Positions 6,984-48,294 of a stretch of 64,000 nt of DNA are shown here, piece by piece. Position 1 is the stretch's first letter. Each line of letters begins with the position of its first letter. The position numbers and the translations under genes were made by a program. The stretch comes from a virus (Duplodnaviria > Caudoviricetes), in IMG/VR virus record IMGVR_UViG_3300009671_000010, positions 47,473 to 111,472 of that record. One strand, written 5' to 3'. The notes beneath the pieces were generated by a model, which did no database searches, was not told the origin of the DNA, and saw only the letters and a list, made by a program, of their open reading frames with translations.

Positions 6984-9122
6984 ATGAAAACACAACGTGC
7001 AATACAGTCTAAGAATACATCAAGAATATTAAAAGCTGTCTTACCTGAATCCTTCAGAATAGTTAATGATAAATCATCTAATGGATATAAATTTATTAAT
7101 TTATTATATGGAGTAGAAGTTGATGAAGTAAGAGAAAGACTTAAAGATTTATATAATAATACATCACTTGAATTTATGGAGTATGATGATAATATTATAT
7201 ATGAATCATATTTATCTGGTATTCCTCACAGTGGAGTTCTTAATGCAGGTATATCAGGTATTCCAATATATATTGTAGACTATGATGAATTTCATAATGG
7301 AGATCCTACACGACTAAAACATATTGAAAATATTTCTATATCGGGAATCAGTTTTGTTAATGGACTTGAATATTTTAGAGATAATAATAGGTTATCTGGA
7401 TATTATTTAATAAATTCAGATATAGATCAACTATCTGGATATATTGATAATATTTTTCCTAATAATAAAGTAATTCTTACGAGTACTGGTATAATTGCCA
7501 GTGGATTTTATGATGGCATTAAAGACCATAATTTTAATACAAAAGGATATTATGAATTACTAGAACCAATGGATTATAATTCTTTATTATCTAAATATCC
7601 ATTATATAGAAAAATATTAGATGATAATGAAAATGAAGTATTTATAGATCACTATGAGCCTTATTATGGATGGATATATGATCATAATAATAACATAGTG
7701 GCTGATACATCTAGTTATAATGGAGATTATTATTTTGATGAGAATGGTAATAAAATCTATTATAGAACAGCGTATAATAATCCTTATGGTTATAATAATT
7801 ATAGTTCTGTATATATTGATCTAGAATACATTCCTATTTCTGGAACATTACATGTATTTGATGTTGATTTACTTGATGCAGATGGCAATGCAATTGAAAT
7901 ACCAATGTCTGGAATTGATCTATATTATAAAAAATCTGATAATACATTTAATCCAATTTATACTGGGTATGATGAATATGTTCCAGATGATATACAGTTT
8001 GGAAGTATTGCTGGTTTAAAAGCTGATAAAATATCTACAATTACATGGGACTATGTAACAGAAGGTAGTGGAAAAGATGATGTTACATTATCCTGGATTA
8101 ATTCTTCAGGTAATATTACTAATAAAATAAGAATCAATAACCCATCGAGTAGATATATAGTTGAATATAAATATAAAACATATGATAAATCTAGTTATAT
8201 ATCATCATTAAGTACCTCCAAATTTATTAGACTTGATTCATCAAATTCTATTTTTTCTATTAATAATAATGAATATAAAGAAATAGATTTTAAATTTACA
8301 AATGATCCAAATCTTAATGAATCCATTTCTGGATTGTATAGATCTACCATATTGACAATGGATGGGTTTAATGTTAGACCTAATTCAAGAATTAGTAAAA
8401 TTGATTTTAATATTCCTGTTGAAATTAAAACCGATATTCTAACATCATATAATCTTATACAACCAGAGTATTTACATATTGGATATTCTAATGAGTTTAT
8501 TCCGAGTATGTTATCTAAGAGAGAATATTTATATAAGACTTACTTTGATTCTATAATTGATATTAATAATGATACTGAAAATGATTTATATAACAAATAT
8601 ACAATGAAATTTATTTCTGATGATATATCAATAATAAATAGAATTCCTTATAATGGTAGGTTTTGTAAAAATATTCTTAATTTTAATATGAATTCCGAAT
8701 ATAGTATATCTCAATGTGATTTTATTAAAAATAACATATTTTTTAGAATATCTCTTAAGAAAGATTTTATTGAAGATTTTACACTATTAGAAGTATCGGA
8801 TGCTACTAATGATATGTATTTTAAAGTTGATGTATTGAGCAATGGTGATATTAAACTTCATTCAAATATTGAATCTGATATAATGTGTACTAATTATATT
8901 TTTAAAAATGCATTTGTATATAACAAAGATAATGATATCATTATTAGATATAATAATGGATCGTATGATATATATTCTAAAAATCATTTTACATACTTTA
9001 AACAAAATGAATATTATAGTGAGTATGTTACATTATTTACTGTAGATGATAGTTTTGTTAAATTAGCTAAAAATTGTTCACTTGAACTCTTTAATTTTGA
9101 AATTTATTATGAGGATCTGTAA
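6984..9122 (+). CDS. Putative virion/baseplate protein (SG-rich)
   Basis: 712-aa ORF with GAGG SD inside the structural operon. Confidence 0.55.
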   Translation: MKTQRAIQSKNTSRILKAVLPESFRIVNDKSSNGYKFINLLYGVEVDEVRERLKDLYNNTSLEFMEYDDNIIYESYLSGIPHSGVLNAGISGIPIYIVDYDEFHNGDPTRLKHIENISISGISFVNGLEYFRDNNRLSGYYLINSDIDQLSGYIDNIFPNNKVILTSTGIIASGFYDGIKDHNFNTKGYYELLEPMDYNSLLSKYPLYRKILDDNENEVFIDHYEPYYGWIYDHNNNIVADTSSYNGDYYFDENGNKIYYRTAYNNPYGYNNYSSVYIDLEYIPISGTLHVFDVDLLDADGNAIEIPMSGIDLYYKKSDNTFNPIYTGYDEYVPDDIQFGSIAGLKADKISTITWDYVTEGSGKDDVTLSWINSSGNITNKIRINNPSSRYIVEYKYKTYDKSSYISSLSTSKFIRLDSSNSIFSINNNEYKEIDFKFTNDPNLNESISGLYRSTILTMDGFNVRPNSRISKIDFNIPVEIKTDILTSYNLIQPEYLHIGYSNEFIPSMLSKREYLYKTYFDSIIDINNDTENDLYNKYTMKFISDDISIINRIPYNGRFCKNILNFNMNSEYSISQCDFIKNNIFFRISLKKDFIEDFTLLEVSDATNDMYFKVDVLSNGDIKLHSNIESDIMCTNYIFKNAFVYNKDNDIIIRYNNGSYDIYSKNHFTYFKQNEYYSEYVTLFTVDDSFVKLAKNCSLELFNFEIYYEDL

Positions 9123-11149
9123 TGAAAATTATTAAATATGTTGATCCAACTGGATCTGGAGATTATCTTGATCTTATTACTGGTATATCTGGAGTTATAA
9201 ATTTAGCTAATGATGCAAATGAATACTCTGATATATATTTATATGTATCAAGAGGAATATATAGTGGATCATTTAATATTAATATACCTTATTCAGGATC
9301 ACTTAGTATCATTGGTAATGATTCTGTATTTTATCCAACTACAACATGTTATATATACGGCAACTATTCTAATAAAGAAAATTTTATTATTAATGGATTT
9401 AATATATATGGAAAATATAATTCAAATACATGTTTTTCTTTATCTTCTGGATTATATTCTACTATTAATAATGCTAAAGTAGTTCATAATAATTTTATTA
9501 ATAATTCAGGTGTACTAAGTATATATGATTCAAAAATCACAGGTAGTGGTTATGGTGTAATAAGTGATGGGAGTGTATATTTTATTAGGTCTAGTATATC
9601 AAATTATAACATAGGAATTACATCAAATGATATCAGTATATATGATTCATTTATAAGTTATTGTGATTCAGGTGTATTTAATATTGGAAATATAAATATA
9701 TTTAATACTGTTATTAATAAATGTCATACAGGTATATATAATATTGGAACTGTAGAATTACATAATACTACATTATATAATACATATGATATTTATTCTG
9801 TAAGTGGAATTGTAAGTTCAGAATCGTCTATTGCTAATATATTTGGTATATCTAATTCTGGATTTTTTAACAATCATAATTTTTATTCAGGCTATCAAGC
9901 TTCAGTATTTAGTTTTACTGATTCTAATAATATTTCTGAACATACTCCTATATATAATTCAATACAGAATGATGACTACAGACTTGTCTTTAATAGTACT
10001 TCTGGATCTTATCTTGTTAATTTCTCTAATAAAATAGATTCTGATATTAATGTTATAAATGATATTGAAAATATTAAATTAATAGAATACTTTGACACAG
10101 TAAATTATAATATTCCTATAGAGCAGTATTCAAATTTTATATATAAAAATGATAGTACTATGATCTTATCTGATTATGGTAAAGAAATTCAGTTCTCAAA
10201 TTTTATACAAAGTAAAGAAATATTATTAAATACTATCTCTATTTTTAAATTTAGCAATTATAATGTTTATACTGATAGTTCTTTTCCAATAGAATTAGAT
10301 AAAATAGCATATACATGGGATTGGGATTTTAAAAATATAGCAACTTATAAAATAGGTAATGATTATAATTTTATAATTCCTCGATCAATAGTTAATGTAA
10401 AAAATATAATTGATGAAAAAATTCCTAATTATAAAATAAGATATGATCTTTTAAATAAAAATTCATATAATGTATACAATCAAATATTTTATACTGGGAT
10501 TTCGTATGATGATAACCTGTCTACTCTTCAAGATAAAATTATCTGGCTAGTTGATGGTAATAATCAAACATTATTAAAGAAGAATATTTATAATGACGAA
10601 ATATATGATTCATATCCTCTTATGATACCAAGTGGTACATATTATGTTAATCCATCAGGATTAATATATGTTGGTAGAGAAAATGAAAAATATAAATATG
10701 TATATGAAGCTGATCCATCGAAATACATATATACAGATAATTATAATGGTAGATTTCAACTACTTCCTACTAATATAAATAATAATATTGATATTAGAGG
10801 AATTAGAAATTATTATGATAAATTACTTATTACTGGTTCAGAATACTCAATGAATATCAATAATAGACTGATTCCTTCATCTGGTAATTGTGTAGGAAAA
10901 ATGTATATGTTAAATAATAATGATGATTTTTTACATTATATATATGAGCCAAATAATAGTTTTATTTTAGAAAATAATATTCCAACTGATTTAACAGTTG
11001 ATGAATTTAATAATATTGTTATATCAGATTATTATGATTCTAATTTATATAAATATAAATTTCTTTATGATTATGCTGTAATTGAATCTAATTATGATCA
11101 AGATATAAAAGTTCTATTAAGAGAATACTATCCTAATATTGAATTGTAA
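9122..11149 (+). CDS. Virion protein with probable N-terminal right-handed beta-helix
   Basis: N-terminal KYVDPTGSGDY..I..(x)n..IYLYVSRGIY resembles pectin-lyase-fold starts and is followed by Asn/Ser/Gly/Ile beta-repeats. Confidence 0.5.
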   Translation: MKIIKYVDPTGSGDYLDLITGISGVINLANDANEYSDIYLYVSRGIYSGSFNINIPYSGSLSIIGNDSVFYPTTTCYIYGNYSNKENFIINGFNIYGKYNSNTCFSLSSGLYSTINNAKVVHNNFINNSGVLSIYDSKITGSGYGVISDGSVYFIRSSISNYNIGITSNDISIYDSFISYCDSGVFNIGNINIFNTVINKCHTGIYNIGTVELHNTTLYNTYDIYSVSGIVSSESSIANIFGISNSGFFNNHNFYSGYQASVFSFTDSNNISEHTPIYNSIQNDDYRLVFNSTSGSYLVNFSNKIDSDINVINDIENIKLIEYFDTVNYNIPIEQYSNFIYKNDSTMILSDYGKEIQFSNFIQSKEILLNTISIFKFSNYNVYTDSSFPIELDKIAYTWDWDFKNIATYKIGNDYNFIIPRSIVNVKNIIDEKIPNYKIRYDLLNKNSYNVYNQIFYTGISYDDNLSTLQDKIIWLVDGNNQTLLKKNIYNDEIYDSYPLMIPSGTYYVNPSGLIYVGRENEKYKYVYEADPSKYIYTDNYNGRFQLLPTNINNNIDIRGIRNYYDKLLITGSEYSMNINNRLIPSSGNCVGKMYMLNNNDDFLHYIYEPNNSFILENNIPTDLTVDEFNNIVISDYYDSNLYKYKFLYDYAVIESNYDQDIKVLLREYYPNIEL

Positions 11150-11160: not shown

Positions 11161-12315
11161 ATGTCGTATCCTGTAGGTAACCCAGTTAGTGGTTTATATA
11201 ATATTTGGAGTGAAGGTGCATTCACTCCTGAACAAGTAGTATCTTTTATTAGAGATAATCAAACGCCAATTAATAAAGCATCATTAATTAATTCAGTTGG
11301 TCACCATGTATCATTGATTGAAAATTTTATTAATACAAGTTATTTAGCCAGAGCTGATTATCCAATTAACAGCGGATGGATTAATAATATATACAATAAT
11401 TTTATACAGACAGACAATATTAATATGTCTGGTTCTATAACAATGAATGTAAAAAATAGTGATCAAGGAATAATTGCTTATTATGATGAAGCAGATAAGT
11501 ATACCTTTACTTCATCTCTTAAACCCAATAGTATTTCACTTACACAAAATCCTTGGAATAATTCAGATTATTGGGGAAAAACTACTATTACTCCTGGCGT
11601 TATTACTGTATGTGGTGCTAATAATTCTGGAATCACTGCATCGGGTTCTGTAATGCATTTTAATAGTGATACATTTGCTACATTAAATTTTAATTCACAT
11701 GCACATGTTATTTCCGATAATAAAATTTTTTCTTATATTGATACAACCTTTAGAGTAAGTTCAGCTGGAATTCATACTGAGGTTAAACCAGATTCGATAA
11801 CATCAACCTCTGCATGTGGATTTTTTATAACAAATACTAATAAAATAAAACTTAAATCGAAATTATTAGATATGTCAGCTGGTACTGTTTTAACTAATTA
11901 TCTTGGCAACTATGATTATCCAATTGTTAACTCATACATGTCCAAAGTTATAATTACTGATTCTCTTCAGATGGGAACTAATCCTAATAGTAAATTTAAA
12001 ATTGGTGTATATAAGAAAAATTTATCTGGTAGTACAACATCACCAATTGTTTTAAGTGGAACTGTTGAAAATAATTATGGAGACTTTGATTCTGTAGTTG
12101 CTACTGCAATCTTTAATAATCAACTTATAACTGCTGGTTTTGAAATTACTGGTGGAGATTTAGATGATTGGACAGTATATCCTTGTACTGGTTATACTAT
12201 ATCCACTGATTCATCAACTGGAGTAGTTAACATATCTGTAACTGGTTCCTTTGCTGGAATGGCTAGTACTACAAACACATATGTATCTATGTTTTTTATA
12301 TATTTTTCAGAATAA
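11161..12315 (+). CDS. Putative short fibre/virion protein
   Basis: GGAGG SD; Ser/Thr/Gly-rich beta-type sequence in the tail region. Confidence 0.5.
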   Translation: MSYPVGNPVSGLYNIWSEGAFTPEQVVSFIRDNQTPINKASLINSVGHHVSLIENFINTSYLARADYPINSGWINNIYNNFIQTDNINMSGSITMNVKNSDQGIIAYYDEADKYTFTSSLKPNSISLTQNPWNNSDYWGKTTITPGVITVCGANNSGITASGSVMHFNSDTFATLNFNSHAHVISDNKIFSYIDTTFRVSSAGIHTEVKPDSITSTSACGFFITNTNKIKLKSKLLDMSAGTVLTNYLGNYDYPIVNSYMSKVIITDSLQMGTNPNSKFKIGVYKKNLSGSTTSPIVLSGTVENNYGDFDSVVATAIFNNQLITAGFEITGGDLDDWTVYPCTGYTISTDSSTGVVNISVTGSFAGMASTTNTYVSMFFIYFSE

Positions 12316-12327: not shown

Positions 12328-13734
12328 ATGGCTAAAGTTACCAAGAAACAAGTATGGTCGAATATAGATGCATTCGGTTTATTGAATGGAATATCTGTAT
12401 GGGATGAACAATATAAAAATCTGAAATATGTAAGAAAACCATTTGATACTACTCATGATATCAGAAAAAAGATTTATAATTTACATGATAATAAAGTTGA
12501 TACTACATATCAAGGTATTGTTAATGGACTTTCAATTGAATTTGATTATGAACCATATAATGTATATGATAAACATATTTTTTTACTTTCATACGAACCC
12601 AATGTGTATAACAGTATAAATGAACAGGATGTATTTGTATATTATAAACTACAAAATTCAGATGATTGGAATGAATTAACTCCACAGACTTGGAATGTAT
12701 CAGCTAGTGGTTTTATGGTTTGGCAAAAATCACATTATAATAATTTGTCTACAAAGAATTTTATATATTCTAATATTCTTCAAATTTTTTCTGATTTACC
12801 TGATTTGACTGAAATTAAAGTTAAATATAAAATTTATATTGATACTGAGGATGGAAAAAAACTTGTTGATTTTACAGACGTAAATAGTATAAATGAAGAC
12901 AGACTTACATATAGAAAAAAAACATTTAATAATATTAATGATTCAATACAAGTATATAATTTAACTAATATTCCTAGCGGAATATACAGTCAATATTATA
13001 AAAATGGAATTCCTACTGATTTTACATATAAATTAAAAAATTATATATCATCGAAGTTTAAACATAAATGGGGTGAATTTAATGATTCTTCATGTATATG
13101 GGATATTAATAAATATTATGGAAGTGGTCATTTACCATCATATTATGATGCATATGATCCAATAGATAGTGGTTATTTGGGTGGTATCGAGAGCTCAAGT
13201 ACATGTTTATATCCATATGAAATCATAGAAACAGATAATCAAGTATTTAATCTTAAAATGTATCCTGGTAAATTTTATATAAGTGGTATTCCATTTTATA
13301 TGTTTGAAAATCCACGAGTATCTAATCTTGTATTTTTTAATGGTTCATGTAATATTCCATCTGGTTTATCACGTACTATGCATACAATATTAAGTCCATC
13401 TGATTTCTATAATTCTACTCAGGATGAGTATTTAAATGGTCATGTATATGAAGATTACATATATCCAACTGGAATAAATCAGATTAAAATTAATGATATT
13501 TTAAGGCGTAGACCATATCTTAATAATAATAACTCAGAACTTGATATAAGTTTAGCTAGTGGCGAATATAGTATTGATTTTAGTGCTGGTAAAATTTATG
13601 CATCAGGTATTAATAATGGCGTTTTAATATGGGATAATAGTTTAATAAATAGTGGATTTATAGTTCCATTTAATGTAAATCCAAGTTTATATTCAAATAT
13701 AAACAGTAGTTTTTTTATTTACCTAAATATATAA
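12328..13734 (+). CDS. Putative virion/baseplate protein (SG-rich)
   Basis: 468-aa ORF with AGGAG SD in the structural operon. Confidence 0.55.
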   Translation: MAKVTKKQVWSNIDAFGLLNGISVWDEQYKNLKYVRKPFDTTHDIRKKIYNLHDNKVDTTYQGIVNGLSIEFDYEPYNVYDKHIFLLSYEPNVYNSINEQDVFVYYKLQNSDDWNELTPQTWNVSASGFMVWQKSHYNNLSTKNFIYSNILQIFSDLPDLTEIKVKYKIYIDTEDGKKLVDFTDVNSINEDRLTYRKKTFNNINDSIQVYNLTNIPSGIYSQYYKNGIPTDFTYKLKNYISSKFKHKWGEFNDSSCIWDINKYYGSGHLPSYYDAYDPIDSGYLGGIESSSTCLYPYEIIETDNQVFNLKMYPGKFYISGIPFYMFENPRVSNLVFFNGSCNIPSGLSRTMHTILSPSDFYNSTQDEYLNGHVYEDYIYPTGINQIKINDILRRRPYLNNNNSELDISLASGEYSIDFSAGKIYASGINNGVLIWDNSLINSGFIVPFNVNPSLYSNINSSFFIYLNI

Positions 13735-29169: not shown

Positions 29170-29171
29170 AA

Positions 29172-40001: not shown

Positions 40002-40602
40002 TATTTCTCCTAAATACTACATTACCAGCTCCATTATTTTCATCAAATGTATCTACAATAGTAAAATTTTTGGATATCATATATTCATTTAATTCATGTA
40101 AACCTTGATTGCCTTCATATAATTCAACATTAATATATTCTGCAATGACTAGGTCCATGTTATTAATATAATTATCAAATTCTTTAATAACATTAAGATC
40201 ATATCCTTGTGTATCTATTACTAGAACGTTATAGTTCGAATAATTATATTGAGGATTATTTTTCATAAAAGTTGTAAATCTATTAACTGTAACATGTGTT
40301 TTATCATTAAATAAAATATCAGGATAAATATTTATATGTTTTTTGGGCCTCAGTAGTGAAGATGATTCATCCATATTAGATGACTTATATATTTTTTTTA
40401 TTCCGTCTTCATTTCCTAAAGCTATATTAAAAATATCAATATCGTTAAATTTATTTTTAAATAAAAAGCTGGCTGTTAGTGAAGGTTCAAATGCTAATAT
40501 ATTATTTGTATAAGTTTTAAATAATGAAATTTCCTGACCTATATTTGCACCTACTTGAATTATTCCTTTTATATCTATTGTATCTAAGTATTTTTTAAAC
40601 AT
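39994..40602 (-). CDS. FkbM-family methyltransferase
   Basis: VGANIG, AFEP, ALG, SSSLL, IDTQGYDL.V and LYEG motifs. Confidence 0.88.
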   Translation of the reverse strand: MFKKYLDTIDIKGIIQVGANIGQEISLFKTYTNNILAFEPSLTASFLFKNKFNDIDIFNIALGNEDGIKKIYKSSNMDESSSLLRPKKHINIYPDILFNDKTHVTVNRFTTFMKNNPQYNYSNYNVLVIDTQGYDLNVIKEFDNYINNMDLVIAEYINVELYEGNQGLHELNEYMISKNFTIVDTFDENNGAGNVVFRRNNV

Positions 40603-41930
40603 TAAAATCCTCTCTTTATTCCTTTTTCATATGGTATATTAAACTTATTAAAATAATAATCTATTGGAGCTTTATATTCTTTGTTTTTTAATTCTTGTTT
40701 TAACCATAAAAATTCTTGTACAACTTCTCTATCAAGGAATGGATATCTCATTTCTATACCAAAACTTCCACCGACATATTCTTCCTTTGCAATATATGAT
40801 TCCATTGTACTTTCATAAAAACTTGGCCAGGGAAATATAGATTTTAAATCTTCTGGAAAATATCCACCGAAAGTACTGTGATTATATATTTTAACATTAT
40901 TAAATCCATAATCTGAAATAATTTCATCTGCTCCTGTACCAGATAGACATATGACACATTTATCTTGTATAGCCATTTTACAGATAGTAGCAAAATTATT
41001 AGAACCATAATCATTAATAAGCAGAGTGTTAAATTCATTATAATTACTTGAACCAGATCTTATTGTATATAAAAATGGTTCAGTTGTTTTTTTAATCCAA
41101 TTGTGTGAATTAATATATAAATCATCATTTTTTGATTGTATTTTACTTTTTATATTATCTGAATTGGATAAAATTCTTTGATTAATAATATAATCATTTT
41201 CTGAACCAATCAAAGTATATGTAAAACATTTTGTATTTGTTTTTATTAATTCAGAATGTATTAATCCACTATCATACCCACTACTTAAACCAATAAATAT
41301 ATTTTTATTAGTATTTGAAACTCTTTTTATTATTGATTTTCTGAATGAATTAATCCAATCGTCATAATTATCTTTAAATTGTTTTAGATCAAAATCGTAA
41401 ATATTATATGAATTATAAAATCCATTATCTAAATTAAAAACATAATATGTGTTTGGTTTAGCTTTAAATATTTGTTTATAATCTAATAATTGTAGTGGTT
41501 GTTTATATGTTGAACATGATATATTATTGTTATCTATTCCTATAAATAATGGTTTTGTTTTAAATGTATCAGTACTTATTAATACTATTTTTTTTCTATA
41601 ATCTACTAAGCATATGGCAAATTCACCATCTAATTTTTTAATAAAATTTGTACCAAATTCTTTATATAGCGGAATTATACATTCACCGTCTGTATTATAA
41701 TTTCCAAAATCTCTATAGTTATAAATCTCACCATTATATATTAATGCTATGTCATCATCATAAAAAGGTTGTGTTTTAAATTCACCAGTAATCGATAATA
41801 AATTATGTATATATAAATGTTCATTTATTTCAACCATGGATGTATAATCTGGTCCTCTAAACTTTAAGTAATAATTAAGTTCATTATAATTTTTATAATT
41901 ATTTTTTGTTGAAAATAAAATACTACACAT
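40602..41930 (-). CDS. asnB: Asparagine synthetase B-like glutamine amidotransferase
   Basis: Start MCSI (Ntn Cys2; SD AGGAG) at 41930; RGPD, NGEIYN, LDGEFA, LSSGYDS, SGTGADE and RYPFLD motifs. Confidence 0.88.
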   Translation of the reverse strand: MCSILFSTKNNYKNYNELNYYLKFRGPDYTSMVEINEHLYIHNLLSITGEFKTQPFYDDDIALIYNGEIYNYRDFGNYNTDGECIIPLYKEFGTNFIKKLDGEFAICLVDYRKKIVLISTDTFKTKPLFIGIDNNNISCSTYKQPLQLLDYKQIFKAKPNTYYVFNLDNGFYNSYNIYDFDLKQFKDNYDDWINSFRKSIIKRVSNTNKNIFIGLSSGYDSGLIHSELIKTNTKCFTYTLIGSENDYIINQRILSNSDNIKSKIQSKNDDLYINSHNWIKKTTEPFLYTIRSGSSNYNEFNTLLINDYGSNNFATICKMAIQDKCVICLSGTGADEIISDYGFNNVKIYNHSTFGGYFPEDLKSIFPWPSFYESTMESYIAKEEYVGGSFGIEMRYPFLDREVVQEFLWLKQELKNKEYKAPIDYYFNKFNIPYEKGIKRGF

Positions 41931-41938
41931 TATATCTC

Positions 41939-42526
41939 CTAGCTTCCATGTGGTCTCCATCTAAAAATTTCTTCTTTAACTTTTTGTTCCAAAAGAATAA
42001 AATTATTATAATTAGTTTTCCACATAGAATATAATAATGATGGTTGATCACGTTTCATACCTTGTTGATATTCATTATACCAAATATCTTGACAATATTG
42101 AAGATCCAAGTCATGTGTTTTTCTTATTAGAACATTATTTTCCATTAATTGAATTTTATCATCAAATCCTTCTTTTTTCCATTTATCATATCGATTAAGT
42201 ACATCATGTGATAATAATCCTCTCTTAATACATTCTTCTATTTCTTCTTTAGCAGTTGTTCTATCAGGATGTTTAAAAAATATAGCAGATTTATTACTAT
42301 TTGATAACATATTACATAATGATATAAGTTTATCTGGATATAATAATGTCATATTAGCATCACAATATACTGTAATTATAGAATGAAATAGGTATTGTGG
42401 ATTCATTTTATAAAATCTATCTGATTTATTTCCAGTAATTAATATACTGGAAATATCATCATTAAGATTATGATTACTAATTCTTTTTTCATAATTATTA
42501 GTATTTACAGAATATAATAAAATCAT
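41939..42526 (-). CDS. DUF616-like (TOD1/MUCI70) glycosyltransferase
   Basis: RFYKM.P, VYCDAN, FKHPDR and RDQPSL motifs; start likely MILLY at 42526. Confidence 0.75.
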   Translation of the reverse strand: MILLYSVNTNNYEKRISNHNLNDDISSILITGNKSDRFYKMNPQYLFHSIITVYCDANMTLLYPDKLISLCNMLSNSNKSAIFFKHPDRTTAKEEIEECIKRGLLSHDVLNRYDKWKKEGFDDKIQLMENNVLIRKTHDLDLQYCQDIWYNEYQQGMKRDQPSLLYSMWKTNYNNFILLEQKVKEEIFRWRPHGS

Positions 42527-42528
42527 TA

Positions 42529-43203
42529 TTATTTCTTCCAATCCACTAATGGACAGATCCAAGGATCATGACAGTGAGTTGCATATCCAGGTATAGGTAC
42601 TATCAAATCACGAAATTGTAACAATTCCCGCCACATATTGTAATCATCAGGCGTAGTATTTTTTACATAGTTTCTCATTATATTACCTGTATTTTTAATA
42701 TCAGATATACGTGCAGCAAAAGTCATAGTAGTACTGTTGGTTGTTTTCCAATGAGTAGAATTAGTAAGATAAACTTTGGATGTTTCAGCTCCTATACTTC
42801 TTACAATTGGATTAGGACTATCTAAAAGATATTTATCAGGATGATCATATAGTGTAACAAATGTTGCAATTTCTAATCCTTCTAATATAATGTCTTTTGA
42901 TTTCGGTTTATGTAGATAATCATCTTCTACAAAATAAACTATGTCGTCATCTTTATATGAATTTGCAATTTCAAGTGCTTTAATAAAGCTACCTGAATTT
43001 CCAGCATTAGTTTCCACTATAGTAAATTTATTTGACTTAGTAAAATCATTAACTACTACTTTACTTGTATTATCAAATATTATTGTGAATCCTTCCCCAA
43101 ATACATCTATAAAATTATATAGACAATCAAATTTTGTAATATTATCATAGTGCGTTAATATTCTATTATCACAGAATCTGTATATTATTTTGAAATCACT
43201 TAT
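42529..43203 (-). CDS. GT-A-type glycosyltransferase-like protein with a probable non-canonical ATA start
   Basis: YFVEDDYLH, LYDHPDKY, STTMTF and PG.ATH motifs. The frame stays open upstream of the GTG at 43017 (SDFKIIYRFCD...CLYNF...IIFDN) up to and past an ATA at 43203. Confidence 0.7.
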   Translation of the reverse strand: MSDFKIIYRFCDNRILTHYDNITKFDCLYNFIDVFGEGFTIIFDNTSKVVVNDFTKSNKFTIVETNAGNSGSFIKALEIANSYKDDDIVYFVEDDYLHKPKSKDIILEGLEIATFVTLYDHPDKYLLDSPNPIVRSIGAETSKVYLTNSTHWKTTNSTTMTFAARISDIKNTGNIMRNYVKNTTPDDYNMWRELLQFRDLIVPIPGYATHCHDPWICPLVDWKK

Positions 43204-43834
43204 TAAAACTAGTAAATCCTTTCCAATTACTTATATCTGTTTGTTTGAAATCATGAAAACCAAATTGATCCGTCCAGATTCTTCCCTGTTTCATATTACC
43301 TTCTAATGAAAATCTTTTAGCCAAACTCTCTGGTGCATATGTGATTCCTTCTTTTTCCATAAGATTTCTATACGTACGACAAAGAATTAAATCTTCTGGA
43401 TTAAAATTTTTAATTGGTAATCTAGAACTAACATCTAGAAATTTTTTAGATCTAAGGCTAAATCCACCATTACCGACATTCATATTATCATCATACCACC
43501 AAGGTGCTCCGATATAATCATAATTAAGAAATTCATCTGTCCAAGCATCTGGATTTAATATGTATCCATCCCATTGAATACATAATGCAAAATCTGTGTC
43601 AACATAGCTAGTGAGATCTTTAATCATAAATCTACTATAATCTTGGATAGTATTTATATCATATATTTTAACAATCTTATCTCCTGCAAAATCATTTTTA
43701 TTATACAATAAAGATGTAAGCAGTTTTATTTCTTTAAATTTTATTTTGCTTTTACTAATCTTTATGGCATGATTTGCTCTATGTACGTTAACACAATCAA
43801 CACACACTAATGTTACATTATTTAATTCTATCAT
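43196..43834 (-). CDS. DUF5672 glycosyltransferase-like protein
   Basis: IQWDG, YDYIGAPW, VGNGGFSLRS, PED, FS.E and FGFH motifs. Confidence 0.85.
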   Translation of the reverse strand: MIELNNVTLVCVDCVNVHRANHAIKISKSKIKFKEIKLLTSLLYNKNDFAGDKIVKIYDINTIQDYSRFMIKDLTSYVDTDFALCIQWDGYILNPDAWTDEFLNYDYIGAPWWYDDNMNVGNGGFSLRSKKFLDVSSRLPIKNFNPEDLILCRTYRNLMEKEGITYAPESLAKRFSLEGNMKQGRIWTDQFGFHDFKQTDISNWKGFTSFNK

Positions 43835-44091
43835 TTTCTATACCATCCCATTTTGTTCATTTCAATTTCTGGTATTTGTTGCAGTGAAAATCCATCAGGT
43901 AATACAAGAATTGGTCGTTCCATATTTAATTGTTTCAAACCATCGAATAAAGATTTAACTATTTCTTCCATCTCTGAAACTTTGATATTTTTTGTATCAA
44001 CTGTACAAACTAATATACTTGAATCATTTAGATTTAATGAATTTAATTTATCCATTAATAAATCACTATACACTATTTTTCTTAGATTCAT
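43831..44091 (-). CDS. Hypothetical protein
   Basis: Overlapping operonic ORF. Confidence 0.6.
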   Translation of the reverse strand: MNLRKIVYSDLLMDKLNSLNLNDSSILVCTVDTKNIKVSEMEEIVKSLFDGLKQLNMERPILVLPDGFSLQQIPEIEMNKMGWYRK

Positions 44092-44599
44092 AATCTATCC
44101 ATACTGTATTGTGTATATCTTCTAGATCTGTTTTTTTAAAATAAATAAATTTATCTTTTCTTCCAAATCTTCTATATAATGTATAAAGTTTCTTATTTTC
44201 ACGAGGAGATAATAATGGCTCCGATAAAATATCTACGGTGTTTTCAACGTAATCAACTAGTTTTACTCTGTTGATTAACATAAATCCGTTTTCTGTTTCA
44301 AACGCAATATAATCAGCTTTACCATAAATCCATCCAGGATATCCAGTAATTCCTTTAATTTCAATACATATCCATTCAGATTGTTGATTATTATCATTTC
44401 TGTTAACTCTTTTCAATCCTTTTACTTCTATTTTATAAGAATTTCCATTAGGATATGTTATTAGCACATCCCAATGTTCAATTCTATCTTGTTTACTTGA
44501 TGCAAAGGAATAATTAATATCTCTATCTTTACACATTCTAGTAAATTTTTCAATGCCTTTTATTCCTATTTGTTCTGAATTATTTGTTTTGAAGTTCAT
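44066..44599 (-). CDS. PD-(D/E)xK-family endonuclease
   Basis: QD..EHWD...IEVKG...WIC.E...GWIYGKADYIAF. Confidence 0.7.
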   Translation of the reverse strand: MNFKTNNSEQIGIKGIEKFTRMCKDRDINYSFASSKQDRIEHWDVLITYPNGNSYKIEVKGLKRVNRNDNNQQSEWICIEIKGITGYPGWIYGKADYIAFETENGFMLINRVKLVDYVENTVDILSEPLLSPRENKKLYTLYRRFGRKDKFIYFKKTDLEDIHNTVWIDYESKKNSV

Positions 44600-47500
44600 G
44601 GTAAATATTTTAAATTCATATGTTTATTATTTAAATCTCTTAAGTCTCTTTTAACTAGTTCTGGATCTAAATTTTTAAATCTATCCTGTTCAAAGTTTAA
44701 TGGAATTGAATCAAGTAAATCTACCCAATCTTCTGTAACAGTATCCCATTGTAATTTCTTTCCAAGATCTATTCCTTTTCTACTATATTCTCTACACATT
44801 TTTTCACTATTATAAAGAAGCTCTAACTGTTTAGCTGTATGATTTACATCAACTAGGGCCTTTATAAAGCCAGTTCGTGTTTCATGTTCGTATGCTGATA
44901 CTTTACTTAATAAAAAAGTATCTTTTCCCCAATCAGCCGCAGCGGAATAGTTAGTAGTTATATTTGGAATACCTGCGGCAGCAGTTTCTAACAAAGGAAG
45001 ACAGTTATGTACAGCAAAACCATCTGTTAAATATGATTCGTCATTTTCTACAGATATATTGTACACTTTTCCAGAATATTCTTTTTTGAATATTTTCTTA
45101 ATTGGTATATAAAAATAATCATTATCTTCTAACACATAATCTATTTTTTTTCTTTTTATTGAAAAATCTATATTATTACATTTATTTATAAATTCTTTAC
45201 ACTTTTTTAAATCTTTAAATAATTGTATTTGTACTACAATAGAATTTCTATTTATTTTTCTTTTTGTAATATATATTTTACTATATATTCCTAAAGTTAG
45301 AAATAAATATTTAATTTGATAAGATAATACTTCACTTGTAGTAGTGTAAACAATACCATTTTTGTTACTTACATGTCCGTCTCCTTCTATTACACCATTT
45401 AAGAATTTTTTACATAAAACCTCATTAGTTTTAAGTATATCATAAATTTCAGTTGGTATTTTTTTATTGTATGCTTTAGATCCAAATGATTTAAATAAAT
45501 TTGATAAGGTTCTAGAAGTGATACATATATTTTCTCTATTTCTTTTCATTATATAGCTCTTATAGTTTAATTTTAATTTATTTGCTAATTCTATTGTATT
45601 ATTTCTAATAATATCATCTGAAGAAGCATTTATTGATATTTTTATATCATCGTGACCGCACGAACCTTCTGCTATATAATTTCCTATAAATTCAGCAGTA
45701 TTCTCATCTATTGTTAGTTTTAAACTTACAGGTTTTGATTTTAAATTAGGTTTATTATTTTTTAATCCATAAATAAAATTATTTTTTTCTACTACTTTAT
45801 ACTCTGTATATTTTTCAATCATGTATTTTGTATCAATTACATTTTCTATACTATCTAACTTTTTGTATTTTGGTAAACATAAATAATGACCTTTATTTAC
45901 AAATCCAGCTGGTACCCATTCTTTTAACAATTCTTTGTTTGCTACAAATAATCTATGATTAGGAGTAAACCATACAGTTAAACTTGAGCCAAGATATTTA
46001 AATCCATACATAGTTCCTGTATAATTTCTAGATAATGGTTCTATTACTTTATTAATATTACCATTATGTGTTATTACTAAATCATCTTTGTTAAAATCTT
46101 GTAATTGTTTAATGCCATCAGGTGTAATTATACGGGTATCACCAAAACTACACCAACCCTCACTATTTGATAATAAAATATGTGCATCAAAACAATTAGC
46201 TATCTCATTTAATTGTGTAGTAGTTGGTCCTTTACCAGGTACTAAATCTTTATTAAAAATACAATATTCATCTACTCCGTAATATTTAGCTAGCCATGGT
46301 AAGTTCCATCCTAATTCATCATTTGGTGAACAATGAAAGTATACTCTCAAGTCTCTATTTGGTTTTTGATACTTCTCTTTGAATATTTTAACAACTTGTA
46401 AAACTGCATCAAATCGCTTGCGCGGTTGGTTACGTGAGATACTATTATGTACACCAACATTTCCTATAACATAACTATTTTTATTTTTAACTTCAAAATT
46501 ATAAACTGTACCATTGAAGTATTTTTTATTAATAGAATTAATCCTTCTATATATAAAATTATTATGTATTTTAATGTGTAATTCTTTTAAATTAGTAGTT
46601 ACTCTATATTTAATTGAATGTTTGGAATTAAGTCTATTGCAATAATTATCAACTGTTATTGAACAAGCTATTTTATTTCTCGCATACAAGATCTCTGCTT
46701 GCCTAGCCATTTCTTTACAGGTTGTTATTACAATTTGTCTACCATCACGAGTATTACAACCATTTCCTTCTTCCCATCCTTTTAAAAATGCAAGTTGTTT
46801 ATAAGGGGGTAATAATAAAAATTCTTTCGAAAGTGACTTAGTTTGGCATTTATCTCCATTCAAAAGTTTTTTAAATAATCTAAACAGTTGTACTGAATTA
46901 ACTTCAATAGTTACATGACCAATATCCATAGAATTTCTATATGATACTCTAGTATTCGTATTTACATTTAGTTTTCTAGAATAATCTTCTACAAATTTAA
47001 TTAACTCTGGTTCTTTTGAATTAAAATTAAAATACAAGCTCGCTTCATATTTTTTTCCTCTTGCCCATGAATATTGAAAGCTTCCTTCAGCAACAAATAA
47101 ACCAAGATATCTCATAAAATCCTCATCCAGTTTTATTTTGTTTGGTAATTTTTTTGCATTTTTCATTTTAACTTCAATTTCATCTGTCGATATTTCATCA
47201 ATATCTATTATATCTGTAATAATTGGTTCTACGAGCCATGATCCTTCTTTTAAATTTTTTATTTCTATCCATTCTGGATCTTGCCTATTAAAACATGTAT
47301 TAATAGATGGATAACCATGTTTTTGATTAGGATGTATAGCATAAAATGGATGTTCTTGTGTTGCTGTGATTGGATCCAATATACCAGCTATGTTGAGTGT
47401 ATATATATCACCATTATATTCTTTTGGATCTGGTGATATGACATAATCTTTTTCACCAAGGTGATTTATTATTTCATCACCTGATTTTATATCCTGAATG

Positions 47501-48294
47501 GGTTTGGTAGTTAGATCAGACATTAAAACAGGAGTATCTTTTAAAAAACATCCCACTAGGAAGGTATTATCATTAATATTAAAATATTTTCTTCTTAATT
47601 CTTTTTTATTATCTAAAGGTTTCCATATACTAGTATCTACTCCATGAGGAATTACATTAATCTTTGCAACTTCTTTATTAATTACTATCCTACATGTTTT
47701 ATTTATTTCATTTTTTGCCCATTCAGTAAATACAACTATTCTATCAGATAATCCAAGTGTATTGATAAGGTTTATCTTTGGAAGATATGGATTAATTGGA
47801 TTGATTTCTGGAAATATACATTCACTGTCTATAGCTAAATATGGTACAAGTTTAAAACTATTTCTATTTCTTACCAGACCTAGATTATATAAACCCCAAA
47901 TATCATTAATAGGAACAACTATGTCTGGTTTAAAATGGTTAATTACATAATAAACAGAATCATATCCATAACTCTCATTTCTACTTGGTATTCCACTAAC
48001 ACATACTTTTTGATCTTGATTATATGAAACTAGGGGATGAACATTAATATATGAAATCTTCTTTTCTAAATTACAATATTCAATTACGTTACCTTTAGAA
48101 CAACAGTTTTTATGTTCTTTTATAACAGTATAATTATGTATTGGTAGATCAACTATGGGTACGCTATTGTTTAAACCAAGTTGAGCTATTTCGAATTTAT
48201 TACTTTTAAGAAGTTTTGTTATTATATTTCTACTAACTACTCCATACCCAGTATTTTTCATTACAGAATCACTTACAAATAAAACTTTTTTCAT
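44596..48294 (-). CDS. GT4-like glycosyltransferase with two inteins (about 480 aa after splicing)
   Basis: TGYG, IPHGVD, VG|SISRNQPRK and EGW|CLPLLE..A.GIP extein motifs. Confidence 0.9.
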   Translation of the reverse strand: MKKVLFVSDSVMKNTGYGVVSRNIITKLLKSNKFEIAQLGLNNSVPIVDLPIHNYTVIKEHKNCCSKGNVIEYCNLEKKISYINVHPLVSYNQDQKVCVSGIPSRNESYGYDSVYYVINHFKPDIVVPINDIWGLYNLGLVRNRNSFKLVPYLAIDSECIFPEINPINPYLPKINLINTLGLSDRIVVFTEWAKNEINKTCRIVINKEVAKINVIPHGVDTSIWKPLDNKKELRRKYFNINDNTFLVGCFLKDTPVLMSDLTTKPIQDIKSGDEIINHLGEKDYVISPDPKEYNGDIYTLNIAGILDPITATQEHPFYAIHPNQKHGYPSINTCFNRQDPEWIEIKNLKEGSWLVEPIITDIIDIDEISTDEIEVKMKNAKKLPNKIKLDEDFMRYLGLFVAEGSFQYSWARGKKYEASLYFNFNSKEPELIKFVEDYSRKLNVNTNTRVSYRNSMDIGHVTIEVNSVQLFRLFKKLLNGDKCQTKSLSKEFLLLPPYKQLAFLKGWEEGNGCNTRDGRQIVITTCKEMARQAEILYARNKIACSITVDNYCNRLNSKHSIKYRVTTNLKELHIKIHNNFIYRRINSINKKYFNGTVYNFEVKNKNSYVIGNVGVHNSISRNQPRKRFDAVLQVVKIFKEKYQKPNRDLRVYFHCSPNDELGWNLPWLAKYYGVDEYCIFNKDLVPGKGPTTTQLNEIANCFDAHILLSNSEGWCSFGDTRIITPDGIKQLQDFNKDDLVITHNGNINKVIEPLSRNYTGTMYGFKYLGSSLTVWFTPNHRLFVANKELLKEWVPAGFVNKGHYLCLPKYKKLDSIENVIDTKYMIEKYTEYKVVEKNNFIYGLKNNKPNLKSKPVSLKLTIDENTAEFIGNYIAEGSCGHDDIKISINASSDDIIRNNTIELANKLKLNYKSYIMKRNRENICITSRTLSNLFKSFGSKAYNKKIPTEIYDILKTNEVLCKKFLNGVIEGDGHVSNKNGIVYTTTSEVLSYQIKYLFLTLGIYSKIYITKRKINRNSIVVQIQLFKDLKKCKEFINKCNNIDFSIKRKKIDYVLEDNDYFYIPIKKIFKKEYSGKVYNISVENDESYLTDGFAVHNCLPLLETAAAGIPNITTNYSAAADWGKDTFLLSKVSAYEHETRTGFIKALVDVNHTAKQLELLYNSEKMCREYSRKGIDLGKKLQWDTVTEDWVDLLDSIPLNFEQDRFKNLDPELVKRDLRDLNNKHMNLKYLP
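45004..46152 (-). mobile_element. Intein 2 in GT4 (383 aa, LAGLIDADG endonuclease)
   Basis: Starts CSFGDTRIIT and ends SYLTDGFAVHN|C; FIGNYIAEG and FLNGVIEGDG motifs. Confidence 0.92.
46444..47550 (-). mobile_element. Intein 1 in GT4 (369 aa, LAGLIDADG endonuclease)
   Basis: Starts CFLKDTPVLM, has block B TQEHPF, ends SYVIGNVGVHN|S; YLGLFVAEG and FLKGWEEGNG motifs. Confidence 0.92.

What the first reader, a model, noticed from the sequence alone, without database searches (positions are those of the whole stretch)
6984..48294. Candidate phage-encoded virion glycosylation system: Ser-Gly motif-rich structural proteins plus a 9-gene glycan cluster
Seen in sequence: virion-module proteins repeatedly carry x-S-G-hydrophobic motifs (ISGI, ISGL, NIPSGI, NIPSGL, NIPSGY, ASGF, VSGI, NSGF). 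Manual SG counts are about 12/712 aa (6984; only about 3 GS), 15/675 (9122), 7/384 (11161), 9/468 (12328) and 10/567 (20324). By comparison, the hub protein has about 4/1432 and the primase-helicase about 7/1153. The same genome has an operon (37474-48294) with two GT4s, a fucosyltransferase-like enzyme, DUF616, DUF5672 and GT-A-like enzymes, two methyltransferases and an AsnB-like amidotransferase. Established: Ser-Gly is the acceptor sequon in proteoglycan O-glycosylation, and glycosylated virions are known in some mycobacteriophages. Inference: the SG motifs are a dispersed O-glycosylation code that coats the baseplate and fibres with a methylated, amidated glycan.
Basis: partly seen in the sequence, partly recalled or inferred. 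Interest (0 to 1): 0.85.

Follow-up and report, generated by a model that had tools for sequence, protein, structure and literature searches.

The report
Ser-Gly tag tracking phage sugar-transferase island
The outer tail, baseplate and sheath proteins of this uncultured large phage carry about three times too many Ser-Gly pairs; close relatives that lack the phage's sugar-transferase gene island lack the excess, so Ser-Gly is probably (not yet chemically shown) the attachment signal for a virus-made sugar coat.

Summary
All seven Ser-Gly (SG) counts are exact. In eight distal-tail proteins SG is 83 observed against 28.9 expected (z about 10), the top dipeptide of 400. GS, NG, DG and TG are not enriched. 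The signal is in frame and uses both serine codon boxes.

The excess recurs in orthologues of at least five related phages at 25-50% identity, although most sites move. It is absent from two unrelated control phages. Two syntenic relatives have no excess (O/E 1.0-1.3) and carry DG, NG and AG at the same turns. In both, the genes that flank the island lie next to each other, so the glycan island is missing there.

Only two GT4-type transferases are conserved across island-bearing relatives. One of them carries two inteins here. The genes between them differ in every phage. No hydroxymethyl-pyrimidine synthase was found, which weakens DNA glycosylation as a rival.

Best reading (about 0.5): SG at exposed beta-turns is a serine-specific O-glycosylation sequon. 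No chemistry supports this yet, and one relative with the transferases shows only a weak excess.

This scan has noted SG excesses next to glycosyltransferase sets in other uncultured phages. The island-less controls are what this case adds.

The parts
6984..9122 (+). Distal baseplate protein, 712 aa, immediately after the gp6/J-like wedge. SG-enriched: 12 against 3.3 expected, GS 3.
   Evidence: Orthologues are SG-rich in G001-G004, L018 and L029 and not in L024.
9122..11149 (+). Distal baseplate or fibre protein, 675 aa. SG-enriched: 15 against 4.3 expected. The N-terminal half looks beta-helix-like by eye.
   Evidence: Orthologue O/E is 2.6-4.0 in G001-G003 and L018, 1.2 in L024 and 1.25 in G004.
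11161..12315 (+). Distal baseplate protein, 384 aa. Moderate SG excess: 7 against 3.5 expected.
12328..13734 (+). Distal baseplate protein, 468 aa. SG-enriched: 9 against 2.5 expected. This family was used for the 47-homologue survey and the AlphaFold model.
13748..18565 (+). Long tail fibre, 1605 aa, with no full-length orthologue in the relatives. Only a mild SG excess: 32 against 19.2 expected, GS 21.
20324..22027 (+). Tail or fibre-module protein, 567 aa. SG-enriched: 10 against 2.8 expected.
26260..29169 (+). Structural protein, 969 aa. SG 11 against 4.7 expected.
29172..30521 (+). Structural protein, 449 aa. SG 6 against 1.4 expected, GS 0.
30522..33902 (+). Structural protein, 1126 aa. 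SG 13 against 6.5 expected.
127..6974 (+). Virion proteins without SG excess, which serve as internal controls: the C-terminal part of the 2270-aa hub or giant protein, a 257-aa protein, the gp25-like protein and the gp6/J-like baseplate wedge.
37474..38625 (-). Conserved GT4 glycosyltransferase, 383 aa, at one edge of the island. Orthologues at 37-74% identity occur in about 95 metagenomic clusters and in G001-G004.
38645..44599 (-). Variable middle of the island: two unassigned ORFs (38645, 39153), FkbM methyltransferase (39994-40602), AsnB-like amidotransferase (40602-41960), DUF616/TOD1-like (41939-42562), an unassigned ORF (42529-43017), DUF5672 (43196-43834) and small ORFs. BLASTP found no orthologue in any of the four whole relatives, except a 29%-identity match of 44066 in G002.
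44596..48294 (-). Conserved large GT4-like GT-B enzyme (extein about 480 aa) interrupted by two inteins, at residues 249-617 and 715-1097. The second lies inside the E-x7-E motif (SNSEGW | intein | CLPLLE).
36653..37452 (-). Flank of the island: ClpP-like protease (36653-37177) and a 92-aa ORF. In the SG-poor relative these lie right beside the other flank.
48403..52961 (-). Other flank of the island: an 83-aa ORF, a 223-aa ORF and the primase-helicase. The primase-helicase is 1153 aa and probably contains an intein.

Best explanation
Ser-Gly at exposed beta-turns of outward-facing virion proteins is proposed to be the acceptor motif for serine-specific O-glycosylation. The proteins concerned are the distal baseplate and fibre proteins, the outer insertion of the tail sheath and an Ig-like head-module protein. 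The extended form of the motif is roughly [I/V/P]-[T/V]-[P/A]-S-G-V-[Y/L/I].

The proposed enzymes are the two GT4-type (GT-B) glycosyltransferases conserved at the edges of a phage glycan island. They would act in the infected cell's cytoplasm on folded or assembling proteins. The variable genes between them would build or tailor a phage-specific glycan; in this phage these are the FkbM methyltransferase, the AsnB-like amidotransferase, DUF616 and DUF5672.

Shown here: the SG excess, its specificity, its persistence through site turnover, its location in turns and in the sheath insertion, its absence from orthologues of two island-less relatives, and the conservation of the two GTs.

Inferred: that serine is glycosylated, which GT primes, and what the glycan is.
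For: 1. Size and specificity. SG is 83 against 28.9 expected in this window and 271 against 87 (z 19.7) in orthologues of G001-G003. GS, TG, NG and DG are at expectation. The signal is in frame and uses both serine codon boxes.

2. Not generic. Two unrelated myophage structural modules show O/E 0.99 and 1.54 with no SG:GS asymmetry.

3. Maintained by turnover. Only about 35-45% of sites are positionally conserved between orthologues at 34-42% identity. In 18 family members SG occupies 73 different columns, and 15 of 18 keep O/E 3.2-5.8.

4. Not needed by the fold. Syntenic orthologues in two phages (contigs behind L024/26/28 and L022/27/66) have O/E 1.29 and 1.04. They carry ND, DN, DG, NG or KG at the recurrent SG columns, and DG, AG and NG are their top X-G pairs.

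5. Co-variation with the island. In one SG-poor phage (L028) tblastn places the orthologues of both flanks (w48403; w37174 and the ClpP-like gene) about 670 bp apart. In the other (L066) the same gene order, from called genes and Pfam, shows no glycan genes. The island is therefore missing from the slot. G000-G003, L018 and L076 carry one or both GTs. SG-poor L024 groups with SG-rich G003 in the baseplate-J tree (98/99), so the contrast is not just one deep split.

6. Surface location. The sheath excess is confined to the middle insertion in all five genomes (11 against 4.9, 13 against 3.4, 11 against 4.8, 8 against 2.7, 6 against 2.5), while the core ends are near 1. The protein with the highest pooled O/E (28 against 6.6) looks Ig-like, Big_5 (Atlas lead). 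SG sits at hairpin turns or loop-to-strand junctions in the AF2 model.

7. Enzymes. The large GT has a confident GT-B model (pLDDT 89). Its best match is chlorovirus B736L (E 7e-19) and its E-x7-E motif is nearly invariant. No ThyA/dCMP-hydroxymethylase homologue is present in any of the five genomes, including the complete G002.

8. Precedents for serine-only, multi-site cytoplasmic O-glycosylation of surface proteins by GT-B enzymes: TibC/AAH modify Ser but not Thr, with one mapped site in QNSGG (PMC4358343); SdgA/SdgB modify Ser-Asp repeats (PMC3794999, PMC8561734).
Against: - No glycan or mass shift has been measured, and all of these phages are uncultured.
- G004 has both GTs (37% and 42% identity) yet four of its seven orthologues are near expectation; pooled O/E is 1.68.
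- The island-less evidence comes from two incomplete contigs (64.5 and 51.8 kb). They may be sister lineages, and the GTs could sit elsewhere in those genomes.
- The island lies on the strand of the replication genes, not the structural operon.
- The residues after SG are hydrophobic (V, then Y/L/I). Part of the flank preference (T at -2, Y two residues after the Gly) is also seen around SG in non-enriched proteins, so some of the motif is ordinary strand-start structure.
- Solvent exposure could not be computed, and the 12328 model is only moderate (pLDDT 70).
- The nearest solved GT4 relatives mostly act on small molecules or lipids, and no acceptor-protein-binding domain was recognised.
Confidence: 0.5

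Rival explanations
1. SG is a lineage-specific structural or assembly preference. It might be a favoured turn type for folding, for chaperone-assisted assembly or for stability in the habitat. It would have nothing to do with the glycan island. The island would serve another target, and its loss in the SG-poor phages would be coincidental or linked to a host switch.
For: SG sits at turns and strand starts. Part of the flank pattern is shared with SG in ordinary proteins. The co-variation rests on few, related genomes. G004 keeps the GTs with only a weak excess.
Against: The same folds work with DG, NG or AG in SG-poor orthologues. Classic turn pairs NG and DG are not enriched in the SG-rich phages. 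The excess spans unrelated folds: the sheath insertion, an Ig-like protein and the baseplate proteins. No structural rule known to me favours Ser over Thr, Asn or Asp before Gly by threefold in one lineage only.
Confidence: 0.2
2. The SG serine is functionally selected but not as a target of the phage GTs. It could be the site of another modification by a host or phage enzyme, or a motif for adhesion or protease resistance. The island would glycosylate DNA or remodel the host envelope.
For: The island is co-oriented with the replication genes. Phage GT clusters are known to hypermodify DNA or to alter host serotypes (discussed in PMC12619734). A radical SAM gene lies inside the fibre module of this phage.
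Against: No ThyA/dCMP-hydroxymethylase homologue is present in any of the five genomes, with a positive control in 10 of 14 reference genomes. The Tet/JBP search was uninformative. The radical SAM gene has no counterpart in relatives apart from one weak G002 match. No kinase or other modifying enzyme was seen to co-vary with the SG excess. The GT pair is the only conserved gene set found missing from the SG-poor slot.
Confidence: 0.2
3. The excess is a compositional, mutational or DNA-motif artefact of a very AT-rich genome.
For: GC is only 22-33% across the window, and Gly is scarce in these proteins.
Against: O/E is normalised per protein. GS is not enriched. SG hexamers are 83 in frame against 5 out of frame and use both serine codon boxes. 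The excess is present in relatives at 31-35% GC and absent in relatives at 27% and 34% GC.
Confidence: 0.03

Closest known systems
Mycobacteriophage virion glycosylation (Che8, Corndog and others; Freeman et al. 2023, Cell Host Microbe; known to me only through citations, for example in PMC12619734, as the paper is not held)
   Same: Phage-encoded glycosyltransferases are proposed to decorate the phage's own virion proteins in the cytoplasm.
   Different: In those phages the glycans are reported at the C-termini of the capsid and tail-tube subunits. Here the candidate sites are a dispersed dipeptide at internal turns of baseplate, fibre, sheath-insertion and decoration proteins, and the major capsid and tube proteins are not consistently enriched. 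This lineage is an AT-rich contractile-tailed jumbo phage. No chemistry has been done here.
Bacterial autotransporter heptosyltransferases TibC/AAH acting on TibA/AIDA-I (PMC4358343)
   Same: Cytoplasmic, serine-specific (not threonine), multi-site O-glycosylation of a beta-rich surface adhesin by a GT-B-type enzyme. One mapped site is the Ser of QNSGG.
   Different: BAHTs are GT9-like dodecamers with an iron finger, and they use ADP-heptose. The conserved enzymes here are GT4-like. A GT9-family hit occurs only in the variable cassette of G002.
GT4 protein-serine O-GlcNAc transferases SdgA/SdgB (Ser-Asp repeats) and GtfA (serine-rich repeat adhesins) (PMC3794999, PMC8561734)
   Same: They belong to the GT4 family and read a serine in a short dipeptide context on surface proteins. 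SdgB appears among the fold matches of the large GT (rank 20, TM 0.53).
   Different: Their substrates are long low-complexity repeats, not isolated turns in folded domains. Neither a DUF1975-type insertion nor a GtfB-like partner appeared in the Pfam hits of the large GT or its neighbours. Sequence similarity to GtfA is marginal (E about 1e-3).
Virus-encoded glycosylation machinery of chloroviruses and Megavirinae (PDB 3OY2, chlorovirus NY-2A B736L; Notaro et al. 2022, PMC10117803)
   Same: The best sequence and fold match of the conserved large GT is a chlorovirus GT. As in Megavirinae, glycan gene clusters are clade- or strain-specific cassettes of rare-sugar pathways.
   Different: Those are eukaryotic giant viruses. 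No sequon of this kind has been described for them to my knowledge. B736L's acceptor is not known to me.
Eukaryotic proteoglycan xylosyltransferase Ser-Gly sequon
   Same: The Ser-Gly core and serine specificity.
   Different: That sequon is flanked by acidic residues and is read by a GT14 enzyme in the secretory pathway. Here D, E and K are depleted around SG and the flanks are hydrophobic, with P/A at -1. Both conserved GTs hit only GT4/GT-B families; GT14 was not searched for directly.

Membership tests
CAZy GT4-type retaining GT-B glycosyltransferase (both conserved island enzymes) | Match to Glycos_transf_1 (PF00534) or related GT4 models above the curated cut-off | tested here: met
   Gene 37474 scores 33.5 bits on PF00534 against a cut-off of 26.4. 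The large GT is sub-threshold on its own (16 bits), but its orthologues carry precomputed PF00534 and PF13692, and the G004 orthologue scores 35 bits.
CAZy GT4-type retaining GT-B glycosyltransferase (both conserved island enzymes) | Two-Rossmann-lobe GT-B fold | tested here: met
   Shown for the large GT only. The AF2 model has pLDDT 88.9 and pTM 0.90. Foldseek top hits are 3OY2 (E 7e-19, TMt 0.80), MshA, BshA and PimB'. The small GT4 was not modelled.
CAZy GT4-type retaining GT-B glycosyltransferase (both conserved island enzymes) | E-x7-E motif in the C-terminal lobe | tested here: met
   In the 33-sequence alignment E356 is nearly invariant and E364 invariant, within NSEGWxLPxLE. In the window's gene the motif is split by intein 2 and is restored only after splicing.
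Mycobacteriophage-type virion glycosylation | Phage-encoded glycosyltransferases present in the phage genome | tested here: met
Mycobacteriophage-type virion glycosylation | Acceptor sites in C-terminal extensions of the major capsid and tail-tube subunits | tested here: not met
   The SG excess lies in internal turns of baseplate, fibre and sheath-insertion proteins. The major capsid protein is 5/2.3, 2/2.0, 4/2.2, 3/2.5 and 2/2.0, and the tube-like proteins are about 1.
Mycobacteriophage-type virion glycosylation | Glycans detected on virion proteins | not testable with these tools
   These are uncultured metagenomic phages; mass spectrometry is needed.
GtfA/SdgB-type GT4 protein-serine O-GlcNAc transferases | DUF1975-like acceptor-binding insertion and Ser-rich or Ser-Asp repeat substrates | tested here: not met
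   No DUF1975 hit in Pfam. The candidate substrates are folded domains with isolated SG turns. SdgB and GtfA appear only as distant GT4 matches. A different Cys/His-bearing insertion (residues about 45-118) is present.
BAHT heptosyltransferases (TibC/AAH) | GT9-like catalytic domain with iron finger and beta-hairpin thumb | tested here: not met
   Both conserved GTs hit GT4 models, not GT9. A PF01075 hit occurs only in a non-conserved G002 cassette gene.
Proteoglycan-type xylosyltransferase sequon | Acidic residues flanking Ser-Gly | tested here: not met
   D, E, K and R are depleted at -3 and -1 and at the first and second residues after the Gly. P/A is enriched at -1, V directly after the Gly, and Y/L/I at the next position.
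Phage DNA glycosylation (T4-like glucosyl-hmC and related) | A hydroxymethyl-pyrimidine-forming ThyA-family enzyme in the genome | tested here: not met
   PF00303 is absent from G000-G004, including complete G002 and 95%-complete G001, while 10 of 14 control genomes hit. The Tet/JBP search was uninformative.

The most novel reading that the evidence does not exclude
A lineage of uncultured contractile-tailed jumbo phages uses a genuine, previously undescribed viral O-glycosylation sequon: Ser-Gly at exposed turns. It is read by a conserved pair of GT4 enzymes. A hypervariable cassette between those two genes sets a strain-specific glycan. The outer surface of tail, baseplate, fibres and head decoration would thus be coated with a swappable sugar layer, and the sequon decays to ordinary Asp/Asn-Gly turns once the enzymes are lost.
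Probability: 0.45. Interest if true: 0.85.

Novelty: new variant of a known kind. Interest (0 to 1): 0.7.

Why it matters
Virion glycosylation by phage-encoded enzymes has been shown chemically only in a few mycobacteriophages, and no acceptor rule is known there.

A short sequon that can be read from sequence would have three uses. Glycosylated virion surfaces could be predicted from metagenomes. It would explain why many large aquatic phages carry big, fast-changing glycan gene islands. It would also give a simple recombinant test: two GTs plus one small SG-rich substrate.

The island-less relatives whose SG sites have reverted to DG/NG act as a natural knockout, which is rare support for a purely computational claim. 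A strain-specific sugar coat on tails and fibres would bear on host recognition, protease and defence evasion, and phage-phage competition.

Tried and rejected
- Megablast of 25 kb against GenBank phages found no match. tblastn with the baseplate protein found only remote hits.
- Pfam and PHROGs gave nothing for any SG-rich protein.
- A homologue search with 9122 found only one relative.
- Alignment A1 was too divergent to seed a viral-contig scan.
- The single metagenome scan returned seven loci. None reached the island slot, and one had to be extended by a look-up.
- The genome search could not open the metagenome contigs, so absence of the GTs outside the fetched parts of the SG-poor contigs is untested.
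- The Tet/JBP family search had no positive control and shows nothing.
- The idea that the radical SAM gene in the fibre module (19005) is the SG-modifying enzyme was dropped. It has no orthologue in G001, G003 or G004 and only a weak 30% match in G002.
- The apparent SG depletion in the three internal giant proteins (121 against 179 expected) is not specific, because NG and DG are also low there.
- The AlphaFold model of 12328 is only moderate (pLDDT 70) and gives no coordinates, so surface exposure could not be measured.
- The Freeman 2023 paper is not held.

Full report
**Setting**

The window is the last 64 kb of a 111,472-bp viral contig (G000). CheckV rates it about 48% complete, and GC is 27.7%. 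It belongs to an uncultured contractile-tailed phage.
- PHROGs identifies the portal, major capsid, sheath and tube upstream of the window, and gp25-like and gp6/J-like baseplate wedge proteins at 5200-6974.
None has a Pfam or PHROG match.

Yes.
- Against each protein's own Ser and Gly content, SG is 3.5-4.3-fold enriched in 6984, 9122, 12328, 20324 and 29172 (shuffle p <= 0.001). It is 2.0-2.4-fold enriched in 11161, 26260 and 30522.
- Pooled, SG is 83 observed against 28.9 expected (z about 10), the most deviant of all 400 dipeptides.
- The reverse pair GS is 33 against 28.9, NG is 1.27 and DG 0.9. The rest of the genome has SG at 1.18.
- Because GS is flat, local Ser/Gly-rich composition cannot explain the excess.
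- SG-coding hexamers occur 83 times in frame and 5 times out of frame. They use both unrelated serine codon boxes (TCN 48, AGY 35). The signal is therefore on the protein, not the DNA.

**Extended motif**

Over 492 SG sites in the enriched proteins of four genomes, the flanks are as follows.
- Enriched residues:

| Position | Enriched residues | z |
|---|---|---|
| -3 | I, V, P | about 5 |
| -2 | T, V | 5.7 (T), 3.4 (V) |
| -1 | P, A | about 8 |
| Directly after Gly | V | 6.9 |
| Second after Gly | Y, L, I | Y 9.7 |

- Depleted residues: D, E, K and R at -3 and -1 and at the first and second residues after the Gly.
- TG is at expectation (1.16), so the preference is for serine specifically.
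- Part of this pattern (T at -2, Y at the second position after Gly) is also seen more weakly around SG in non-enriched proteins. Some of it is therefore ordinary strand-start structure.

**Is it generic to tail proteins?**

No. The structural modules of two unrelated large myophages show pooled O/E of 0.99 (Bacillus phage 0305phi8-36) and 1.54 (Moorella phage MTATph1). Neither has an SG:GS asymmetry.

**Relatives**

I recovered four whole or large related genomes from IMG/VR and several metagenome contigs.
- IMG/VR genomes: G001 (219 kb), G002 (230 kb, complete with terminal repeats), G003 (140 kb) and G004 (147 kb).
- Gene order is syntenic.
- The same orthogroups are SG-rich in G001-G003 and L018. 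Pooled over seven orthogroups:

| Genome | SG observed | SG expected | O/E | GS observed |
|---|---|---|---|---|
| G000 | 72 | 24.3 | 3.0 | 28 |
| G001 | 103 | 29.7 | 3.5 | 38 |
| G002 | 97 | 29.5 | 3.3 | 32 |
| G003 | 71 | 28.0 | 2.5 | 26 |

(Counts.) The four baseplate orthologues available for L018 have O/E 2.4-3.9.
- In G001-G003 together SG is 271 against 87.1 (z 19.7), while NG and DG sit at expectation.

**Turnover**

Only 3-5 of 7-15 SG sites per protein are positionally shared between orthologues at 34-42% identity.
- A full HMMER search of 1.84 billion representatives found 47 homologues of the 12328 protein.
- Among 18 near-full-length members, 15 keep SG O/E 3.2-5.8 with low GS. 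Yet SG occupies 73 different alignment columns, most in only one or a few sequences.
- The excess is therefore maintained while sites come and go. That points to selection for the motif itself rather than inheritance of a few structural positions.

**Natural controls**

Three family members lack the excess. Two of them sit on syntenic contigs:
- logan SRR24319152_34102, 64.5 kb, GC 27% (L024, L026, L028);
- JGI Ga0502773_0000373, 51.8 kb, GC 34% (L022, L027, L066).

All their orthologues of the SG-rich set are near expectation, pooled 30/23.2 with GS 34 and 19/18.3 with GS 24.

At the 16 columns where four or more SG-rich members have SG, the SG-poor orthologues carry ND, DN, DG, NG, KG, PD and similar pairs. 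So do those SG-rich members that lack SG at the site. These are generic turn residues. In the SG-poor phages the most over-represented X-G pairs are DG (50 against 32), AG and NG. The folds therefore do not need SG.

**The island and its co-variation with the excess**

- In G000 the minus-strand block 37474-48294 is bounded by a GT4 (37474-38625) and a 1232-aa gene.
- The extein of the 1232-aa gene is a second GT4-like enzyme.
- Both have orthologues in G001-G004 (54/54/47/37% and 49/48/45/42% identity) and in about 90-95 metagenomic clusters each, on contigs up to 230 kb.
- One large-GT cluster sits on the 130,761-bp contig of SG-rich L018. L076 also has the pair.
- BLASTP found no orthologue in any relative for the genes between the two GTs, apart from one 29%-identity match of 44066 in G002. 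Each phage has its own cassette:

| Genome | Cassette between the two conserved GTs |
|---|---|
| G000 | FkbM methyltransferase, AsnB-like amidotransferase, DUF616-like, DUF5672 |
| G001 | About 27 kb: TPP enzyme, aldolase, DegT aminotransferase, 4,6-dehydratase, C-methyltransferases, two radical SAM enzymes, epimerases, UDP-GlcNAc 2-epimerase |
| G002 | GT9-like, DegT, B12 and SPASM radical SAM enzymes, HAD |
| G003 | GT4, FnlA/CapD-like dehydratase, 2-epimerase, RmlD-like, two further GTs |
| G004 | Only a third GT4 |

- In SG-poor L028, tblastn places the orthologues of both flanks next to each other. The order is primase-helicase, w48820, w48403, two small ORFs, w37174, ClpP-like w36653, with about 670 bp between the flanks and no glycan gene.
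- L066 shows the same order by its called genes and Pfam labels.
- No GT family appears in the roughly 41 kb and 34 kb of those contigs that I could read.

**Phylogeny**

Trees of two conserved proteins give a firm clade that joins G000, G001 and G002 (100/100). L018 belongs with these three. SG-rich G003, weak G004 and SG-poor L024 group together (98/99). The contrast is therefore not simply one deep split. Whether the two SG-poor phages represent one loss or two is unresolved.

**Where the sites lie**

- In the 913-aa sheath, the excess is confined to the middle insertion (residues about 200-715) in all five genomes. The conserved N- and C-terminal core segments are at expectation.
- In contractile sheaths the inserted domains are the outward-facing ones; this is established knowledge and was not tested here.
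- The small protein downstream of the capsid gene with the highest pooled O/E (28 against 6.6) resembles bacterial Ig-like Big_5 domains (Atlas score 0.94, a lead only). That would fit a head decoration protein.
- In an AlphaFold model of the 12328 protein (18-sequence alignment, pLDDT 70), the SG sites in confidently modelled regions lie in two-residue hairpin turns or just before a strand.

**The enzymes**

- The large GT models confidently as a GT-B fold (pLDDT 88.9, pTM 0.90).
- Its best sequence and fold match is the chlorovirus NY-2A glycosyltransferase B736L (profile E 8e-17; Foldseek E 7e-19, TMt 0.80).
- Generic retaining GT4 enzymes follow. The protein-serine transferase SdgB appears further down the list.
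- The E-x7-E motif is essentially invariant.
- In this phage the gene carries two canonical inteins (Cys1...His-Asn, then Ser or Cys at +1). The second is inserted inside the E-x7-E motif. Inteins tend to sit in the most constrained sites of important genes, which fits a gene under strong selection.

**Rival targets for the island**

- DNA glycosylation needs a hydroxylated base. No ThyA or dCMP-hydroxymethylase family member is present in any of the five genomes, including the complete one, although the control genomes hit.
- The Tet/JBP search had no positive control.
- Host-envelope modification cannot be excluded.
- The island is co-oriented with the replication genes, which fits early or middle expression. 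That orientation is neutral to mildly unfavourable for a role in virion modification.

**Weak points**

- No chemistry exists.
- G004 carries both GTs but only three of seven orthogroups are clearly SG-rich (pooled O/E 1.68).
- The island-less contigs are incomplete.
- The number of independent evolutionary events is small.

**Verdict**

A serine-specific SG acceptor code read by the two conserved GT4 enzymes is the best explanation (about 0.5).
- The particular glycan chemistry is phage-specific and unproven.
- The proteoglycan analogy does not hold at the level of flanking residues or enzyme family.
- Earlier notes of this scan report SG excesses beside GT clusters in several other uncultured phages, and a variable glycan island in what appears to be G001. 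I did not test those. What this case adds is the island-less relatives with reverted turns.

Noticed in passing
window 44596-48294 (-): The conserved large glycosyltransferase carries two canonical inteins, at residues 249-617 and 715-1097. Intein 1 has a Hom_end Hint match at its start; intein 2 has a LAGLIDADG domain. Intein 2 is inserted inside the catalytic E-x7-E motif (SNSEGW|C...HN|CLPLLE), so the enzyme can be active only after splicing. The orthologues in G001, G002 and G004 have no intein.
   Followed up: yes
window 49500-52961 (-); genome 9647-12646 and 4817-7114; G003 128737-131097; G001 95842-97899 and 102526-104697: The lineage is unusually rich in inteins. The primase-helicase is 1153 aa here against 790-819 aa in the relatives L028, G001 and L066. 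The portal is 999 aa against 714, and the 765-aa protein at genome 4817-7114 (function not assigned here) matches a 612-aa orthologue. The G003 GT4 and several sugar-pathway enzymes of relatives (4,6-dehydratase, B12 radical SAM, FnlA-like) show intein-sized insertions or Pfam intein hits.
   Followed up: partly
window 19005-20294 (+): A 429-aa radical SAM protein (PF04055, Fer4_12) is embedded in the tail-fibre module, between the 1605-aa fibre and the next SG-rich protein. Relatives have no counterpart apart from a weak 30% match in G002. Function unknown.
   Followed up: partly
window 41939-43017 (-): The DUF616/TOD1-like match covers only the C-terminal half of the profile, in ORF 41939-42562. 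The overlapping upstream ORF 42529-43017 has no hit. The two may be one gene split by a frameshift, or two genes.
   Followed up: no
Large GT family (alignment A4; residues about 45-118 of the G001 orthologue, L010 8572-10053): The N-terminal lobe carries a beta-rich insertion with an invariant His63 and nearly invariant Cys66, Cys67 and Cys105. It could be a metal site or an acceptor-binding module. I did not compare it with GT4 structures.
   Followed up: no
L026 19347-20264; L027 19077-19979; L076 2513-3313: Relatives of the G003/L024 group carry a patatin or Lipase_3 family gene at the end of the structural module. It is absent at that position in the window's phage.
   Followed up: no
P0156 (large GT orthologue): One orthologue lies on a 229-kb contig that NCBI labels as a Candidatus Omnitrophica MAG. 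This is probably a phage genome binned with a MAG. It is a possible, untested hint about the host or habitat.
   Followed up: no
window 13748-18565 (+): The 1605-aa fibre has no full-length orthologue in any relative and shows only a mild SG excess (O/E 1.67, GS 21). This would fit a recently acquired fibre that has not yet adapted to the SG bias.
   Followed up: partly
G001 147812-154861; genome 29286-51897 and orthologues: The three giant internal or tape-measure-slot proteins have fewer SG than expected (121 against 179 over five genomes; 0 against 7.7 in the G001 hub). NG and DG are also low there, so the depletion is not SG-specific.
   Followed up: yes
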